The notes beneath the pieces are model-generated. The model was not told the origin of the DNA. It was given only the letters and a program-made list of their open reading frames with translations, and searched no databases. The position numbers were made by a program, and so were the translations under genes. From the IMG/VR virus record IMGVR_UViG_3300030616_000016, positions 70,561 to 134,560 of that record: DNA of 64,000 nt; one strand, written 5' to 3'. Within the stretch, counting starts at the first letter, position 1. Every line of letters starts with the position of its first letter. Source of the DNA: a virus. This document shows, piece by piece, positions 46,328 to 63,792 of the stretch.

Positions 46328-46669
46328 TCAATTGACTGATTTGGATCCACAGTTTGGACATTCAAATAAGAGTTTAATATCATAGCCACAATAAAAGCAT
46401 TGATTATACGGCTCAAGATATTTTATAGTATTGACTGTATTAATAGTTGTGCCAAGTGCGACATTGCTATTAGGGTTTAGAGTGGCATTAGAAAGCTGAA
46501 ACATATTCCATTTTAATCTTTTAGTTATATATACATTGTGCTTATGAGTCCAATTGTATATATAATTCCTATGTACATCGGAAATATCTTCGTTACAAGT
46601 AAGTATGTTCTTGTGATATCTGACGCGTATGTGTCGCTTCATTACTTTTGCGGCTTCTCTATATTTCAT
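46328..46669 (-). CDS. Zn-ribbon-tailed family member
   Basis: N-terminus MKYREAAKVM, C-terminus CFYCGYDIKLLFECPNCGSKS. Confidence 0.5.
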   Translation of the reverse strand: MKYREAAKVMKRHIRVRYHKNILTCNEDISDVHRNYIYNWTHKHNVYITKRLKWNMFQLSNATLNPNSNVALGTTINTVNTIKYLEPYNQCFYCGYDIKLLFECPNCGSKSVN

Positions 46670-46854
46670 TGTGATGGTCCATTTCCGAATACGACTCCGT
46701 CTCTGTACCCTTCTGTATGTCCAGCATTATATCCTGCCGCATAGGCTTTCTTTGCTAGTTCTTTTTGCTTTTTATCTTTTATACTAGCAGCTCTACACCA
46801 TTTCTTGAATTCCTTCTCACTGTATTCCATCATCCTCCTCCTCATAGCGGTCAT
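46666..46854 (-). CDS. Small hypothetical protein
   Basis: ORF of 62 aa. Confidence 0.3.
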   Translation of the reverse strand: MTAMRRRMMEYSEKEFKKWCRAASIKDKKQKELAKKAYAAGYNAGHTEGYRDGVVFGNGPSQ

Positions 46855-46910
46855 CTTCAGTCATCTTATGGCGACTTAAGAATGCCCATATTATTATGAT
46901 TATCAATAAT

Positions 46911-47153
46911 TCAACCCCCATTGTTGTCTCCATCTACATGATGATTTTTGCAAATTCTTACCTTGTGTCCTTGATAGTCAATTTCTTTTGTATCCGCCAT
47001 GGCATTCAATCTGCCACAAATAATACATCTTCCAACTGACTTTCTCTTTTCAGCTATTTTATTGCCCAGCAATGCTTTACTATCATTATTTTTGCTCATA
47101 AAAATTCTCCTATTGGTTATGTTGTTGTCTGATAACATTAAGGAATGCATCAA
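46911..47153 (-). CDS. Small Cys/His protein
   Basis: CIICGRLNAMADTKEIDYQGHKVRICKNHH. Confidence 0.35.
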   Translation of the reverse strand: MMHSLMLSDNNITNRRIFMSKNNDSKALLGNKIAEKRKSVGRCIICGRLNAMADTKEIDYQGHKVRICKNHHVDGDNNGG

Positions 47154-47439
47154 TTCTATCAGAAGGTCTTTTGCGCAATTCTTGAATATAAATCGCGCGT
47201 CTTTTGGTAAGATTATCTATCCTCTCTTTTAGTTTCACTTCTTTCCTTGAAATATAAAACTTTCTTACTATTGGTGATAGAACAAACCATCTACTCTTTA
47301 GTTTTTCGTACTTTACTTTCAATAGCCATATTTCATCATTTAAATTGTTTATGGCAATAGATAAATCAGCACCTGACATTTTTGGAATAAGGTTAGTTTT
47401 CATGCTCTCTCCATATTTCATAATAATGTAGAGCCGCAT
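47110..47439 (-). CDS. Hypothetical coiled-coil protein
   Basis: ORF of 109 aa. Confidence 0.4.
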   Translation of the reverse strand: MRLYIIMKYGESMKTNLIPKMSGADLSIAINNLNDEIWLLKVKYEKLKSRWFVLSPIVRKFYISRKEVKLKERIDNLTKRRAIYIQELRKRPSDRIDAFLNVIRQQHNQ

Positions 47440-47777
47440 AAATCACAAATCTTCTGCTCTATATTAATATCTTTATTCCCACAAAATGGACATAATGCTA
47501 AATGAATGTTCTGAATGTCTGTTGATGTTAATGCTGCTGTATGCCAATAAGAGTCTATGACTATTGATTTATACTCCATGTGTATTCTAGATATTTTGAT
47601 ACTCTTGTTTGCTATAGTATTTGGAAGCCTGCATTGATACATTGTTGTACCATCTCCTTTATCATATATAGCACCATTAATAAGAGGAGAGTTTTCATCT
47701 TGTACATAAATTACAGACCATTGGTTTTCGTATGCAATAACACATTCTTCATAGGTCATTATGATACTCTCCTTCAA
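47418..47777 (-). CDS. Zn-ribbon-tailed family member
   Basis: MTYEECVIAYENQ..., C-terminus CPFCGNKDINIEQKICDLCGS. Confidence 0.5.
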   Translation of the reverse strand: MKESIIMTYEECVIAYENQWSVIYVQDENSPLINGAIYDKGDGTTMYQCRLPNTIANKSIKISRIHMEYKSIVIDSYWHTAALTSTDIQNIHLALCPFCGNKDINIEQKICDLCGSTLL

Positions 47778-47784
47778 TAATCAA

Positions 47785-48108
47785 TTAGTATTCTATAATG
47801 ACTTCTGGCTGTTTATACTCATTTGTATCTTTGTTAGTTTTAACCGGCGGCAAGACATTAATGATCCTACCATATGTGTCTTTTACTGTGCGGCTCGCTT
47901 CAAATTCTTCTTGTGTTAGTTCATTGGGATTGCCATACTGTTTGACCCATCCATTATATAGCTGCTTAGCATTTCTTTCTCTTTTTTGTATGATGCTTTT
48001 GCTGCTTCTAAATGTACATATAATCATTGATGAAAGTATGCAGATTATCGCTAATAGTACTACTAATTCAATAAAGGCAAACCCTTTATTACACTTTAAT
48101 ATTTTCAT
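47785..48108 (-). CDS. Type IV pilin / pseudopilin-like protein (prepilin N-terminal methylation motif)
   Basis: N-terminus NKGFAFIELVVLLAIICILSSMII matches the class III signal (K-G-F-T-L-I-E + hydrophobic helix). Confidence 0.5.
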   Translation of the reverse strand: MKILKCNKGFAFIELVVLLAIICILSSMIICTFRSSKSIIQKRERNAKQLYNGWVKQYGNPNELTQEEFEASRTVKDTYGRIINVLPPVKTNKDTNEYKQPEVIIEY

Positions 48109-62240: not shown

Positions 62241-62512
62241 TCTGCGTCCTCCTGTTCTGGTTCTGGTCTTGTTACTTTAAATCCCATGTTTTCAACTTCA
62301 TCCAAAGTATAAGCATCCTTCCGTGGTTCTTTATATTTTCTGCTTAATTCTATCCATTTATTACAACTTGGACAACGGCTATACATGTTCCTGATTTCTG
62401 TAGGGTCAACCTTATTCAGCATGCACTCTCCATCTTTGCTTTGAAATGAATCAACAGTGGTTCCACAAAAAGGGCAATACATTTCAAAGTTTACATAGTC
62501 ATACATTCCCAT
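62237..62512 (-). CDS. Small zinc-ribbon protein
   Basis: CPFCGTTVDSF...CPSCNKW. C-terminus PEPEQEDAE overlaps the conserved junction sequence. Confidence 0.45.
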   Translation of the reverse strand: MGMYDYVNFEMYCPFCGTTVDSFQSKDGECMLNKVDPTEIRNMYSRCPSCNKWIELSRKYKEPRKDAYTLDEVENMGFKVTRPEPEQEDAE

Positions 62513-62730
62513 TCTACGTCCTCCTCAATTATTTTTTGAAGACTTTTGAAATCTGACTTTAAGTCAAAAATTGCTTTTATCATCCATCCTATCGATGTTA
62601 GTATAAATGTGATAAAGCAATAGAAAACTATATCCATTTGGTATTCTCCTGTATGTGTATCCGGCCATTTATTAGGCCAAAATGGCCTGATTGATAATTA
62701 AGTTTGTTCGATAGGCGCCGCTTAACCGCT

Positions 62731-62781
62731 TATCAAGGTGCATTCGTAAGACCCCTGGCTTTAGGCGTGGGGTAATGTCAC
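62731..62781 (+). mobile_element. 51-bp minimal derivative of the IS200/IS605 element (left-end 5' arm fused to right-end 3' arm)
   Basis: TATCAAGGTGCATTCGTAAGACCCCTGGCTTTAGGCGTGGGGTAATGTCAC. The junction lies in the CTTTAG shared by both hairpin loops. It supplies the last 7 codons and stop of ORF 62761-63024. Confidence 0.7.
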
Positions 62782-63024
62782 TTCTAAATCTAGTTCATAT
62801 TTAATTGTTTTTACTAGATCATTAATTAATTCTGGACGTGTAGCCATAGTTTCTACATTCCAATTTCTGTTGATGTATTGTGGTTTACATCTTAAATTAA
62901 AATTTCCTCCAATATCAGAGATAGATTCAATTATAGCTTTGATTCTTTCAGGAGTTAAACCAGCATTATGATAGTCTTCAAAACTCAAATGGATTATTGT
63001 TGTTGTATAATAATTAAGTTTCAT
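62761..63024 (-). CDS. Hypothetical protein, C-terminus provided by the mini-IS
   Basis: Ends EVTLPHA-stop, encoded by GTGACATTACCCCACGCCTAA of the element. Confidence 0.4.
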   Translation of the reverse strand: MKLNYYTTTIIHLSFEDYHNAGLTPERIKAIIESISDIGGNFNLRCKPQYINRNWNVETMATRPELINDLVKTIKYELDLEVTLPHA

Positions 63025-63274
63025 TGTTCAATTCCTTTAGTTTAGCTTTCCATTGTTTTTCTGAATACCATTTGCCATCGAGACACCAAGCCTTATCTCC
63101 ACTAGCCCACTCAATTGAAGGTCCATCTTCTCTGTGATATTTGTCATTAATACACCAATACTTACTTCCATTGAAACCCTCAATTGCTGGAGCACCTTTT
63201 CGATGTAAGATTTTGTTTTTATCATAATGATCAAGAATGCTACCATCTTTATAATAGAATTTACTTCTTCTCAC
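63014..63274 (-). CDS. Repeat-containing small protein (two HR(K/E)(D/G)GP(A/S)IE...KYWC(I/L)-like repeats)
   Basis: HRKGAPAIEGFNGSKYWCINDKYHREDGPSIEWASGDKAWCLDGKW. Confidence 0.4.
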   Translation of the reverse strand: MRRSKFYYKDGSILDHYDKNKILHRKGAPAIEGFNGSKYWCINDKYHREDGPSIEWASGDKAWCLDGKWYSEKQWKAKLKELNNET

Positions 63275-63318
63275 GTTTAGCCCTTTCTCTTATTAAATAA
63301 TTAATCTATTTTCAATAT

Positions 63319-63792
63319 TTAAGTGGTTTGTAACTCGGCAATAAGTAATGTGTTTCGTAAGATACTGCGCACGCTCTCAAAACTAAGATACAAATCGCTG
63401 TAGCAATCATTACATGACTCATATGGATAGTTATTGTATATATTATCACTCCCACAAAATGGACATGTTAATTTATATAAACTATCAGATACACATTTGT
63501 TAATATTGAATGTGAATAATTTTAATGTTAGTGCGTTGCCTTCATCGAGCGGGACTTTGAACAATAAACTATAGGTACATATATTGTCACTCCCCTTTTT
63601 TCCTATACTTTCTAGATAAAGCGGCAATTTTCTTTGTTGGCCTATGTTAAGTTCTTGAGATACAACAGTCTCCTCCTCATCTGTCATATGGAACCTATAG
63701 TTAGTCGTTTGAGTCTCGTTAAGTGTATATGGGTTAGCAATATAAATAAGCGGCCATTTCTCTTTCATAGCCTTAAGTAAGTTCAATTCCAT
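63319..63792 (-). CDS. Zn-ribbon-tailed family member
   Basis: MELNLLKAMKEK..., C-terminus CPFCGSDNIYNNYPYESCNDC. Confidence 0.5.
   Translation of the reverse strand: MELNLLKAMKEKWPLIYIANPYTLNETQTTNYRFHMTDEEETVVSQELNIGQQRKLPLYLESIGKKGSDNICTYSLLFKVPLDEGNALTLKLFTFNINKCVSDSLYKLTCPFCGSDNIYNNYPYESCNDCYSDLYLSFESVRSILRNTLLIAELQTT

What the first reader, a model, noticed from the sequence alone, without database searches (positions are those of the whole stretch)
46328..63792. Multigene family of small proteins with shared N-terminal MT(I/F/Y)xE(A/L)..A and C-terminal C(K/Q)(F/Y)CG-x5-9-C-x2-CG(C/S) zinc ribbon around hypervariable cores
At least 11 members are present: 46328, 47418, 48517, 54415, 54757, 55555, 56325, 58074 and 63319, plus the more distant 6232 and 45220. 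Compare MTIQELQIAKEN...CKYCGYTNLSGTTCTNCGSEQS, MTIEEAMHAIKHK...CEFCGSDEIQKGVCKNCGCETSI, MTFKEAVRAYINK...CKYCGNQDIDIKHKACNNCGCDSELP and MKLKEVRQCYKNG...CKFCGHNEIKDVCLNCGCNSEMP. Constant termini with diversified middles suggest a diversifying family. Candidates include host-takeover or anti-defence factors, or nucleic-acid-binding adaptors sharing a common docking or Zn-binding tail.
Basis: seen in the sequence. Interest (0 to 1): 0.7.

Follow-up and report, generated by a model that had tools for sequence, protein, structure and literature searches.

The report
Expanded small zinc-ribbon protein family in phage
An uncultivated giant phage carries at least a dozen old, highly diverged copies of a small protein found nowhere else, built from a short helix, a small beta-barrel and a zinc-binding tail; the family is real, but its function is only guessed (probably binding host proteins).

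Summary
The observation largely holds. Nine ORFs on the minus strand between 46328 and 63792 form one real paralogous family. The ORF at 45220 shares only the tail, and the ORF at 6232 is not a member. At least three more intact copies and one frameshifted copy lie just past the window end on the same 231.6 kb metagenomic contig.

Conservation is uneven. Tails are strongly conserved, the N-terminal helix moderately, and the cores are not recognisable in pairwise comparison. The conservation is at protein level only. Synonymous codons are scrambled and the copies share no DNA repeats, so these are ancient duplicates and not products of an active diversifying mechanism.

A strain variant shows gain or loss of one copy, one frameshift, and higher pN/pS than a neighbouring gene.

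No homologue exists outside this phage lineage among 1.84 billion representative proteins, IMG/VR or 50,697 phage records. The tail is a generic zinc ribbon.

Function is unknown. Most copies are acidic, so my best guess is that they are small protein-binding host-takeover or anti-defence factors. The closest precedent is the zinc-ribbon expansion of Bacillus phage G, which is analogous but not homologous.

The parts
46328..46669 (-). Family member, 113 aa. MKYREAAKV... ...CFYCGYDIKLLFECPNCGSKSVN. The only strongly basic copy in the window (pI 9.5).
   Evidence: HMM E 2.7e-24 and 7.9e-20. Same sequence as P0004. pI. Its start overlaps the stop of the upstream gene.
47418..47759 (-). Family member, 113 aa from the ATG (MTYEECVIAYEN... 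...CPFCGNKDINIEQKICDLCGSTLL). An upstream TTG at 47777 is an alternative start.
   Evidence: HMM E 5e-31. Same sequence as P0002. GGAG-type ribosome-binding site upstream of the ATG.
48517..48912 (-). Family member, 131 aa. MTFKEAVRAYINK... ...CKYCGNQDIDIKHKACNNCGCDSELP. Lies directly upstream of an MqsR-toxin-like gene.
   Evidence: HMM E 4.9e-37. Neighbour annotation.
54415..54747 (-). Family member, 110 aa, with a divergent N-terminus (MRTYLKFIQGD...). Has an extra CxxC before the ribbon (...CESCSVKNIKDTKNFICKFCGGDVSVDTRVCSSCGSQH). Starts 9 nt after the stop of member 54757.
   Evidence: HMM E 5.2e-23. Same sequence as P0005.
54757..55101 (-). Family member, 114 aa from an internal ATG (MTIEEAMHAIKHK... 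...CEFCGSDEIQKGVCKNCGCETSI). The longer 157-aa ORF listed mechanically is probably not the real start.
   Evidence: HMM E 2.9e-35. The ENA gene call and P0001 are both 114 aa. AGGA-type site upstream.
55555..55866 (-). Family member, 103 aa, lacking the N-terminal helix motif (MSETRMPQVGELWQW...). Tail CQFCGSKEIQDEVCCNCGCETNT.
   Evidence: HMM E 4.2e-18, matching profile positions 29-115 only. Tail 73% identical to that of 54757.
56325..56756 (-). Family member, 143 aa, with a C-terminal helical extension. This is the copy that was modelled. Model layout: helix 3-12, strands forming an SH3-like barrel (16-18, 29-31, 69-107), low-confidence variable loop 35-58, zinc knuckles about 110-127, helix 133-140.
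58074..58403 (-). Family member, 109 aa. MTIQELQIAKENKTK... ...CKYCGYTNLSGTTCTNCGSEQS. It is 52% identical to a paralogue just outside the window (P0014, L005 7771-8091).
   Evidence: HMM E 1.6e-29. Comparison with P0014. Position of the paralogue.
63319..63792 (-). Distant family member, 157 aa. MELNLLKAMKEKW... ...CPFCGSDNIYNNYPYESCNDCYSD plus a 25-aa C-terminal extension. The last knuckle ends CY, not CG.
   Evidence: Found by an HMM that did not include it (E 9.4e-6, profile positions 6-112). Same sequence as P0003.
45220..45642 (-). Possible very distant relative, 140 aa. Only the last strand and a zinc ribbon with a 23-residue insert resemble the family. Not counted as a member.
   Evidence: HMM E 1 and E 1e-3 for profile positions 74-110 only. 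BLASTP hits to members cover the tail only.

Best explanation
This is a lineage-specific expansion of a previously undescribed small protein in the accessory-gene region of an uncultivated jumbo phage.

Shown:
- There are at least 12 intact copies and 1 frameshifted copy spread over about 21 kb: nine in the window, the rest just beyond its end.
- The copies are old duplicates. Pairwise identity is 20-50% and synonymous sites are saturated.
- The four zinc-ligand cysteines, the neighbouring glycines and an N-terminal helix have been kept by selection on the protein, while the middle has drifted or adapted.
- The family turns over between strains.

Modelled, with modest confidence:
- Each copy is one compact unit: an N-terminal helix, an SH3-like beta-barrel with a long variable loop, and a C-terminal four-cysteine zinc ribbon that follows directly on the last barrel strand.

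Inferred:
- The zinc ribbon is a structural clasp that stabilises a very small domain. It is neither a catalytic site nor a specific docking signal.
- The variable loop and barrel surface give each paralogue a different binding partner.
- Because most copies are acidic and the genes lie among other accessory genes, the most likely role is as small stoichiometric binders or inhibitors of host proteins, that is, host takeover or anti-defence.

My confidence in the description of the family is about 0.9. My confidence in the functional class is about 0.4.
For: Family reality and extent:
- HMM and BLASTP results.
- Motif count of 10 against 0 in shuffles.
- Extra copies on the same contig.

Protein-level conservation rather than DNA-level:
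- Scrambled TGT/TGC and GGN codons, and no shared word longer than 17 nt.
- No direct repeats linking members.

Conservation profile:
- Tail much more conserved than the N-helix, which is more conserved than the barrel and loop.

Fold:
- AlphaFold2 pLDDT 73, pTM 0.69, with pLDDT above 90 for residues 1-20 and 101-130.

Real genes:
- Shine-Dalgarno-like sites upstream of eight of the nine starts; the ninth (46328) overlaps the stop of the upstream gene. All are co-oriented with the neighbouring genes.

Turnover between strains:
- L003 is 88-94.5% identical in DNA to the same locus.
- It carries an extra 111-aa member and an intact version of the copy that is frameshifted here.
- pN/pS is 1.8, 0.41 and 0.62 for three members against 0.18 for the adjacent non-family gene.

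Restricted distribution:
- The only full-length hits among 1.84e9 representative proteins come from this phage.
- Nothing was found in IMG/VR.
- Nothing was found in 50,697 phage records.

Acidity:
- 10 of the 12 intact copies have pI 4.5-5.8.

Context:
- Neighbours include pentapeptide-repeat, YopX, DUF6745, MqsR-like, DUF488 and GerE-type genes and many orphan ORFs.
Against: - There is no functional evidence of any kind.
- The fold rests on one model built from 11 sequences. A second member modelled poorly (pLDDT 51).
- Acidity is soft evidence, and two copies are basic (pI 9.5 and 8.2).
- pN/pS values come from three short gene pairs with few substitutions. None is significantly above 1 (binomial P 0.25).
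- SH3-like barrels and zinc ribbons are both common nucleic-acid-binding modules, so a regulatory or nucleic-acid role is not excluded.
- The host is unknown.
Confidence: 0.45

Rival explanations
1. The paralogues are sequence-specific nucleic-acid-binding regulators, that is, transcription factors or RNA-binding adaptors working with the phage's own multisubunit RNA polymerase or with host RNA. The zinc ribbon and barrel would contact nucleic acid and the variable loop would set specificity. This is what Iyer et al. 2021 proposed for the zinc-ribbon expansion of Bacillus phage G.
For: - The phage encodes a multisubunit RNA polymerase subunit (Rpb2_6 domain).
- The tail's nearest sequence matches are rRNA-binding ribbons: bL32 at E 1e-3 and L37e.
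- There is a literature precedent (PMC7824862).
Against: - 10 of the 12 intact copies are acidic, which is unusual for nucleic-acid binders.
- All sequence matches cover only the roughly 21-residue ribbon and fall below family cut-offs.
- There is no homology to the phage G family (hhalign probability 3.9%).
Confidence: 0.25
2. The constant ends are handles for an active diversification mechanism, such as a diversity-generating retroelement, cassette shuffling or gene conversion, that hypermutates the cores.
For: The contrast between conserved termini and unalignable cores looks superficially like a scaffold with a variable region.
Against: - No DNA repeats connect the members.
- The longest shared nucleotide word is 17 nt, and codons for the invariant Cys and Gly residues differ freely among copies.
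- Core lengths differ by tens of residues.
- No template or variable repeat pair was seen.
Confidence: 0.02
3. The proteins are Tad2/AcrIIA7-like (DUF2829) signal sponges or anti-CRISPR proteins. This idea came from the similar N-terminal pattern M-x-F-x-E-A-x-x-A-x-K-x-G-x-x-V.
For: A resemblance in the first ~16 residues to solved Tad2 and AcrIIA7 sequences retrieved.
Against: - Profile-profile comparison gives probability 0.4%.
- The invariant GWNGKGMF and DW motifs of DUF2829 are absent.
- No Pfam hit to DUF2829.
Confidence: 0.03
4. The similarity is coincidental: unrelated small ORFs that each happen to end in two CxxC pairs.
For: Small zinc-ribbon ORFs are common in this window. Examples are 62237-62512, 59599-59835, 58477-58740 and 46911-47153.
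Against: - Full-length HMM alignments with E values from 1e-18 to 1e-37, and recovery of a member left out of the model.
- End-to-end BLASTP alignments for some pairs.
- Zero motif occurrences in shuffles.
- The other zinc-ribbon ORFs do not match the family HMM.
Confidence: 0.01

Closest known systems
Lineage-specific expansion of zinc-ribbon proteins in Bacillus phage G (about 35 copies, e.g. YP_009015343.1 = gp32; Iyer, Anantharaman, Krishnan, Burroughs and Aravind 2021, PMC7824862)
   Same: - Many paralogous copies of a ~100-aa zinc-ribbon protein in one jumbo phage genome, partly in tandem.
- Conserved ribbon and one conserved terminal helix, with divergent middles.
- Function unknown.
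   Different: - Opposite architecture. In phage G gp32, gp34, gp35 and gp37 the ribbon (CPIC...Cx2-3C) is N-terminal and the conserved helix (KENDRYL) is C-terminal.
- No detectable homology: hhalign probability 3.9% over one CxxCG knuckle, and tblastn of a member against all phage records finds nothing.
- Only the four copies in the first 50 kb of phage G were examined here.
Generic zinc ribbons (Pfam Zn_ribbon_3 PF13248, DZR PF12773, Zn_Ribbon_1 PF13240; ribosomal bL32 and eL37 ribbons)
   Same: The tail CxxCG-x6-11-CxxCG has the two-knuckle pattern and spacing of these ribbons. Its best solved match is Firmicute bL32, 'CPNCGEYKLSHRVCKNCGS' (E 1e-3).
   Different: - Matches cover only about 21 residues and all score below the curated cut-offs (best 17.3 bits against 27).
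- The 80-110-residue N-terminal part has no counterpart in any library.
SH3-like small beta-barrels (Tudor, KOW, Sm/Hfq, PsaE, MIB repeat)
   Different: - Sequence identity is 7-17%.
- Foldseek finds nothing significant in PDB or BFVD.
- The family adds an N-terminal helix, a long insert and a fused zinc ribbon.
- The resemblance rests on one medium-confidence model.
Lar-type restriction alleviation proteins (PF14354, TIGR03655)
   Same: Small phage zinc-ribbon proteins with an anti-defence role. There are weak hits for three proteins (E 0.005-0.16).
   Different: The hits cover only one knuckle and fall below the cut-offs. In the Lar models the matched ribbon is at the N-terminal end (profile positions 2-33 of 55-58), whereas here it is C-terminal.

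Membership tests
Generic zinc ribbon (Pfam Zn_ribbon_3, DZR, Zn_Ribbon_1) | Two CxxC knuckles separated by a short hairpin | tested here: met
   C91, C94, C104 and C107 are invariant, as is G95, in all aligned members.
Generic zinc ribbon (Pfam Zn_ribbon_3, DZR, Zn_Ribbon_1) | Score at or above Pfam's gathering threshold | tested here: not met
   Best hit is 17.3 bits against a cut-off of 27 (Zn_ribbon_3). Others are 11-15 bits against 25-27.
Generic zinc ribbon (Pfam Zn_ribbon_3, DZR, Zn_Ribbon_1) | Binds one zinc ion through the four cysteines | not testable with these tools
   Needs metal analysis of purified protein.
Ribosomal protein bL32 | Full-length similarity to bL32, including the N-terminal segment before the ribbon | tested here: not met
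   Only profile positions 89-109 match bL32 residues 27-48 (E 1e-3). No bL32 model appears among the hits listed from Pfam (E up to 1) or NCBIfam (E up to 0.01).
DUF2829 (Tad2 / AcrIIA7) | Profile similarity and the conserved GWNGKGMF ... DW motifs | tested here: not met
   hhalign probability 0.4%. The motifs are invariant in the Tad2/AcrIIA7 alignment but absent here.
Phage G zinc-ribbon expansion (Iyer et al. 2021) | Many paralogous small zinc-ribbon proteins within one jumbo phage genome | tested here: met
   Nine copies in the window, plus three intact and one frameshifted copy just beyond it.
Phage G zinc-ribbon expansion (Iyer et al. 2021) | Sequence homology and the same domain order as phage G gp32-type proteins | tested here: not met
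   hhalign probability 3.9%. Phage G proteins have an N-terminal ribbon and a C-terminal KENDRYL helix. tblastn found no match.
Diversity-generating retroelement target proteins | Template and variable DNA repeat pair, with a nearby reverse transcriptase | tested here: not met
   No DNA repeats involve any member. Reverse transcriptase was not searched for exhaustively.
Lar restriction alleviation (PF14354, TIGR03655) | Score above the curated cut-off over the Lar domain | tested here: not met
   16.3 bits against 28.6, and 17.1 bits against 39.6, each covering one knuckle only.
MqsA-type antitoxin (considered for 48517, which is next to an MqsR-like gene) | N-terminal zinc domain plus C-terminal HTH, encoded downstream of mqsR | tested here: not met
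   The ribbon is C-terminal. No HTH hit was found. The gene lies upstream of the MqsR-like gene, and only one of the nine members has such a neighbour.

The most novel reading that the evidence does not exclude
The family is a new class of modular phage counter-defence or host-takeover proteins. A common helix-barrel-zinc-ribbon scaffold would display a hypervariable loop, so each paralogue neutralises a different host target. The phage would then carry a dozen-member inhibitor library that is reshuffled between strains. A more speculative version is that the bL32-like ribbon docks the paralogues on the ribosome or on an RNA polymerase.
Probability: 0.25. Interest if true: 0.6.

Novelty: new member of a known kind. 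Interest (0 to 1): 0.35.

Why it matters
Jumbo phages carry large blocks of orphan genes, and expanded paralogous families within them are good places to look for host-interaction factors. This family is confined to one phage lineage among billions of sequences. It has a simple and apparently robust scaffold, and it shows gain, loss and decay of copies between near-identical strains. If the copies prove to be target-specific inhibitors, they would be a compact natural library of binders and a source of new anti-defence proteins. As it stands, the result is a clean description of a new orphan family with no demonstrated function. Similar zinc-ribbon expansions have already been noted in other jumbo phages.

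Tried and rejected
1. Known-family assignment. Pfam, PHROGs, NCBIfam and PADLOC scans of all members gave only sub-threshold zinc-ribbon hits. Scanning the N-terminal domains alone gave no family hit by more than one member and no PDB sequence match.

2. Tad2/DUF2829 idea, from the N-terminal helix pattern. I retrieved real Tad2 and AcrIIA7 sequences, aligned them and ran hhalign, which gave probability 0.4%. Rejected.

3. Homologues elsewhere.
- Two word-indexed searches returned only the phage's own proteins.
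- The exhaustive HMMER search returned two extra full-length hits, P0014 and P0018. I first took them for orthologues in another phage. Their contig L002 turned out to be 99.98% identical to the same genome just outside the window.
- IMG/VR scans found nothing, apart from a spurious ribbon-only match, L004.
- The JGI metagenome scan found only L008, a protein with a similar ribbon at its N-terminus and an unrelated remainder.

4. Structure.
- The first AlphaFold2 model (member 54757) was too poor to use (pLDDT 51).
- The afdb50 library was unavailable.
- Foldseek against PDB and BFVD gave nothing significant.

5. Shared promoter or partner gene. The upstream regions share only Shine-Dalgarno-like sites, and no gene type recurs next to members.

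6. DNA-level diversification or gene conversion. Rejected.

7. Host inference from the TnpB gene. The best relatives are only 50-54% identical and are scattered over Methanosarcina, Bacteroidales, Cytophagia and Clostridia. Uninformative.

8. Nearest phage. There is no nucleotide match, and the RNA polymerase subunit has only remote matches below 40% identity.

Full report
**Setting**

The window is part of a 231.6 kb metagenomic contig (ENA ERZ27252234 k141_1275754). All of its genes lie on the minus strand.

It encodes:
- an RNA polymerase beta-type subunit fragment (Rpb2_6 domain), UvrD-like and ResIII helicases, a protein-kinase-like protein and an intact TnpB;
- a nicotinate phosphoribosyltransferase.

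It has no nucleotide match among 50,697 phage records, and its polymerase subunit has only remote protein matches. It therefore looks like a jumbo phage from an undescribed lineage.

The region of the finding (45-64 kb) is packed with small orphan ORFs. It also holds pentapeptide-repeat, YopX, DUF6745, MqsR-like, DUF488 and GerE-type genes.

The ORFs exist as described.

Membership:
- An HMM built from eight members scores them at E 1e-18 to 1e-37 over essentially their full length. It also finds 63319-63792, which was not in the model, at E 9e-6 over profile positions 6-112.
- A broader HMM confirms nine members in the window.
- Some pairs align end to end by BLASTP, for example 54757 against 58074 at 30% over 115 aa and 47418 against 54757 at 24% over 111 aa.
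- The two 'more distant' ORFs fare worse. 45220 matches only the last strand and the ribbon, and that ribbon has a 23-residue insert (E 1 and 1e-3). 6232 has a different C-terminal cysteine pattern and no profile match.

The tail motif C..CG-x5-12-C..C[GY] occurs ten times in the window. Nine of these are at C-termini inside the region. It never occurs in nucleotide or within-ORF residue shuffles.

Eight of the nine starts have a Shine-Dalgarno-like site. The ninth (46328) overlaps the stop of the upstream gene. This also fixes the shorter starts of 54757 and 47418.

**Constant ends, variable middle**

| Segment | Mean pairwise z-score vs shuffles | Sum-of-pairs BLOSUM |
|---|---|---|
| Zinc-ribbon tail | 6.6 | 2.96 |
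| First 20 residues / N-helix | 1.7 | 0.95 |
| Core: barrel / variable segment | 0.18 | 0.07 / -0.21 |

The variable segment ranges from 19 to 49 residues in length.

The conservation is purely at protein level:
- The Cys and Gly codons of the motif vary freely among copies.
- The longest nucleotide word shared by any two members is 17 nt.
- No direct DNA repeat links members.

These are old duplicates whose zinc ligands have been held by purifying selection. They are not products of a diversity-generating retroelement or of cassette shuffling.

**Extent and distribution**

An exhaustive HMMER search of 1.84 billion representative proteins returned 11 full-length hits:
- Nine are the window's own proteins.
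- Two are new: P0014 and P0018.
- All other hits are multi-ribbon repeat proteins that match only the tail.

P0014 and P0018 lie on a 13 kb contig from a sibling sample. That contig proved 99.98% identical to the same phage contig immediately beyond window coordinate 64000. The genome therefore has a tandem cluster there:
- a 115-aa member;
- a frameshifted member;
- a 106-aa member;
- a 139-aa member.

The total is at least 12 intact copies over about 21 kb.

A 2.7 kb contig from a third sample (L003) is a strain variant, 88-94.5% identical in DNA. It has five tandem members, including an extra 111-aa copy and an intact version of the frameshifted one.

Between the two strains, pN/pS is as follows:

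| Gene | pN/pS |
|---|---|
| 106-aa member | 1.8 |
| 115-aa member | 0.62 |
| 139-aa member | 0.41 |
| Adjacent non-family gene | 0.18 |

The counts are small, and no value is significantly above 1.

Searches outside this lineage:
- IMG/VR scans found nothing.
- A JGI metagenome scan found nothing apart from an unrelated protein with a similar N-terminal ribbon.
- tblastn against all phage records found nothing.

**What the protein looks like**

No Pfam, PHROG, NCBIfam or PADLOC model reaches significance. The only hits are sub-threshold matches of the tail to generic zinc ribbons: Zn_ribbon_3, DZR, L37e, the NrdD C-terminus and Lar. The best solved-structure sequence match is the ribbon of Firmicute bL32 (E 1e-3, 21 residues). 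The N-terminal 80-110 residues match nothing.

AlphaFold2 failed on member 54757 (pLDDT 51). It gave a usable model for member 56325 (pLDDT 73, pTM 0.69):
- helix 3-12;
- strands forming a small barrel;
- a low-confidence loop 35-58, which coincides with the variable segment;
- the two zinc knuckles immediately after the last strand;
- a C-terminal helix.

**Mechanism**

Shown: this is an old, lineage-restricted, still-turning-over paralogous family with a conserved zinc-ribbon tail and N-helix.

Inferred: the ribbon most likely staples a very small domain together rather than acting as a docking signal, because it is generic in sequence and contiguous with the barrel. Differences among paralogues are concentrated in a loop and on the barrel surface, which is what a set of binders with different partners would look like.

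Ten of the 12 intact copies are acidic (pI 4.5-5.8). That favours protein targets over nucleic acids.

Taken with the accessory-gene context and the strain-level turnover, I rate the options as follows:

| Explanation | Confidence |
|---|---|
| Small host-takeover or anti-defence binding proteins | about 0.4-0.45 |
| Nucleic-acid-binding regulators | about 0.25 |
| Tad2-like sponge | 0.03 (tested and rejected) |
| Active diversification | 0.02 (rejected) |

**Comparison with what is known**

The nearest precedent is the lineage-specific expansion of about 35 zinc-ribbon proteins in Bacillus phage G, noted by Iyer et al. 2021 (PMC7824862).

I located its exemplar, YP_009015343.1, which is gp32 by RefSeq numbering. 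gp32, gp34, gp35 and gp37 have an N-terminal ribbon and a conserved C-terminal KENDRYL helix. That is the reverse order of the present family. hhalign shows no relationship (probability 3.9%).

The present family is therefore a new, unrelated example of a known phenomenon.

**Verdict**

- The family is novel as a sequence family but ordinary in kind.
- Interest is moderate to low until a function is shown.

Noticed in passing
window 56100-56312 (+ strand): C-terminal relic of a TnpB, with the zinc-finger and RuvC-end motifs. It is 35% identical to the intact TnpB at 21900-23117 over 55 aa (E 3e-7). It is the only plus-strand coding remnant in an all-minus region and directly abuts the stop codon of member 56325.
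   Followed up: partly
window 61601-62056, inside the gene at 61020-62240; also 63919-64000: About 38 tandem 12-nt units encode SL(R/H/Y)(D/N/K)-type tetrapeptide repeats inside a 406-aa DUF6745 protein. A second DUF6745 paralogue starts near 63923. The 82 nt at 63919-64000 spanning its end are 94% identical to the corresponding stretch of the first copy (61016-61097), which suggests a recent duplication.
   Followed up: no
window 48120-48488 and 47785-48108 (- strand): An MqsR-toxin-like gene (PF15723) lies directly downstream of member 48517, with no recognisable MqsA. It is followed by a 107-aa ORF whose N-terminus (KGFAFIELVVLLAI) looks like a bacterial type IV prepilin signal, judged from my own knowledge.
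   Followed up: no
window 51694-51972 and 56787-57083 (- strand): A second small paralogous pair sharing WFA[LI]LPVT...W..VTVV. It is 49% identical over 43 aa (E 7e-9). Function unknown.
   Followed up: partly
window 59154-59615 and 60332-60634 (- strand): Two genes containing 15-nt tandem repeats. The first is a Pfam pentapeptide-repeat protein. The second carries ISA(W/E/R)(N/D/G)-like five-residue repeats.
   Followed up: no
window 52762-54402 (- strand): A 546-aa protein with no Pfam hit. It has a weak PHROG match to ATP-dependent DNA ligase (E 1.4e-4) and a KYDG motif, so it may be a divergent ligase.
   Followed up: no
window 21900-23117 (- strand): An intact TnpB (OrfB_IS605 plus Cas12f-like TNB domains). 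Its best genomic relatives (50-54% identity) are mostly in Methanosarcina genomes, with single hits from Bacteroidales and Fibrisoma; lower-ranked hits (about 43-48%) include Clostridia. This gives no usable host signal.
   Followed up: partly
window 62237-62512, 59599-59835, 58477-58740, 51062-51310, 46911-47153 (- strand): Several further small cysteine-pair ORFs (CxxC pairs seen by eye or by regex), none recovered as a member by the family HMM. The window as a whole is rich in small zinc-binding orphan proteins.
   Followed up: partly
L005 7416-7765 (same contig, just beyond the window end) against L003 1231-1578: One family copy is split by a frameshift in this genome but is intact in a strain variant from another sample. 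That variant also has an extra 111-aa member (L003 1580-1915) that is absent here.
   Followed up: yes
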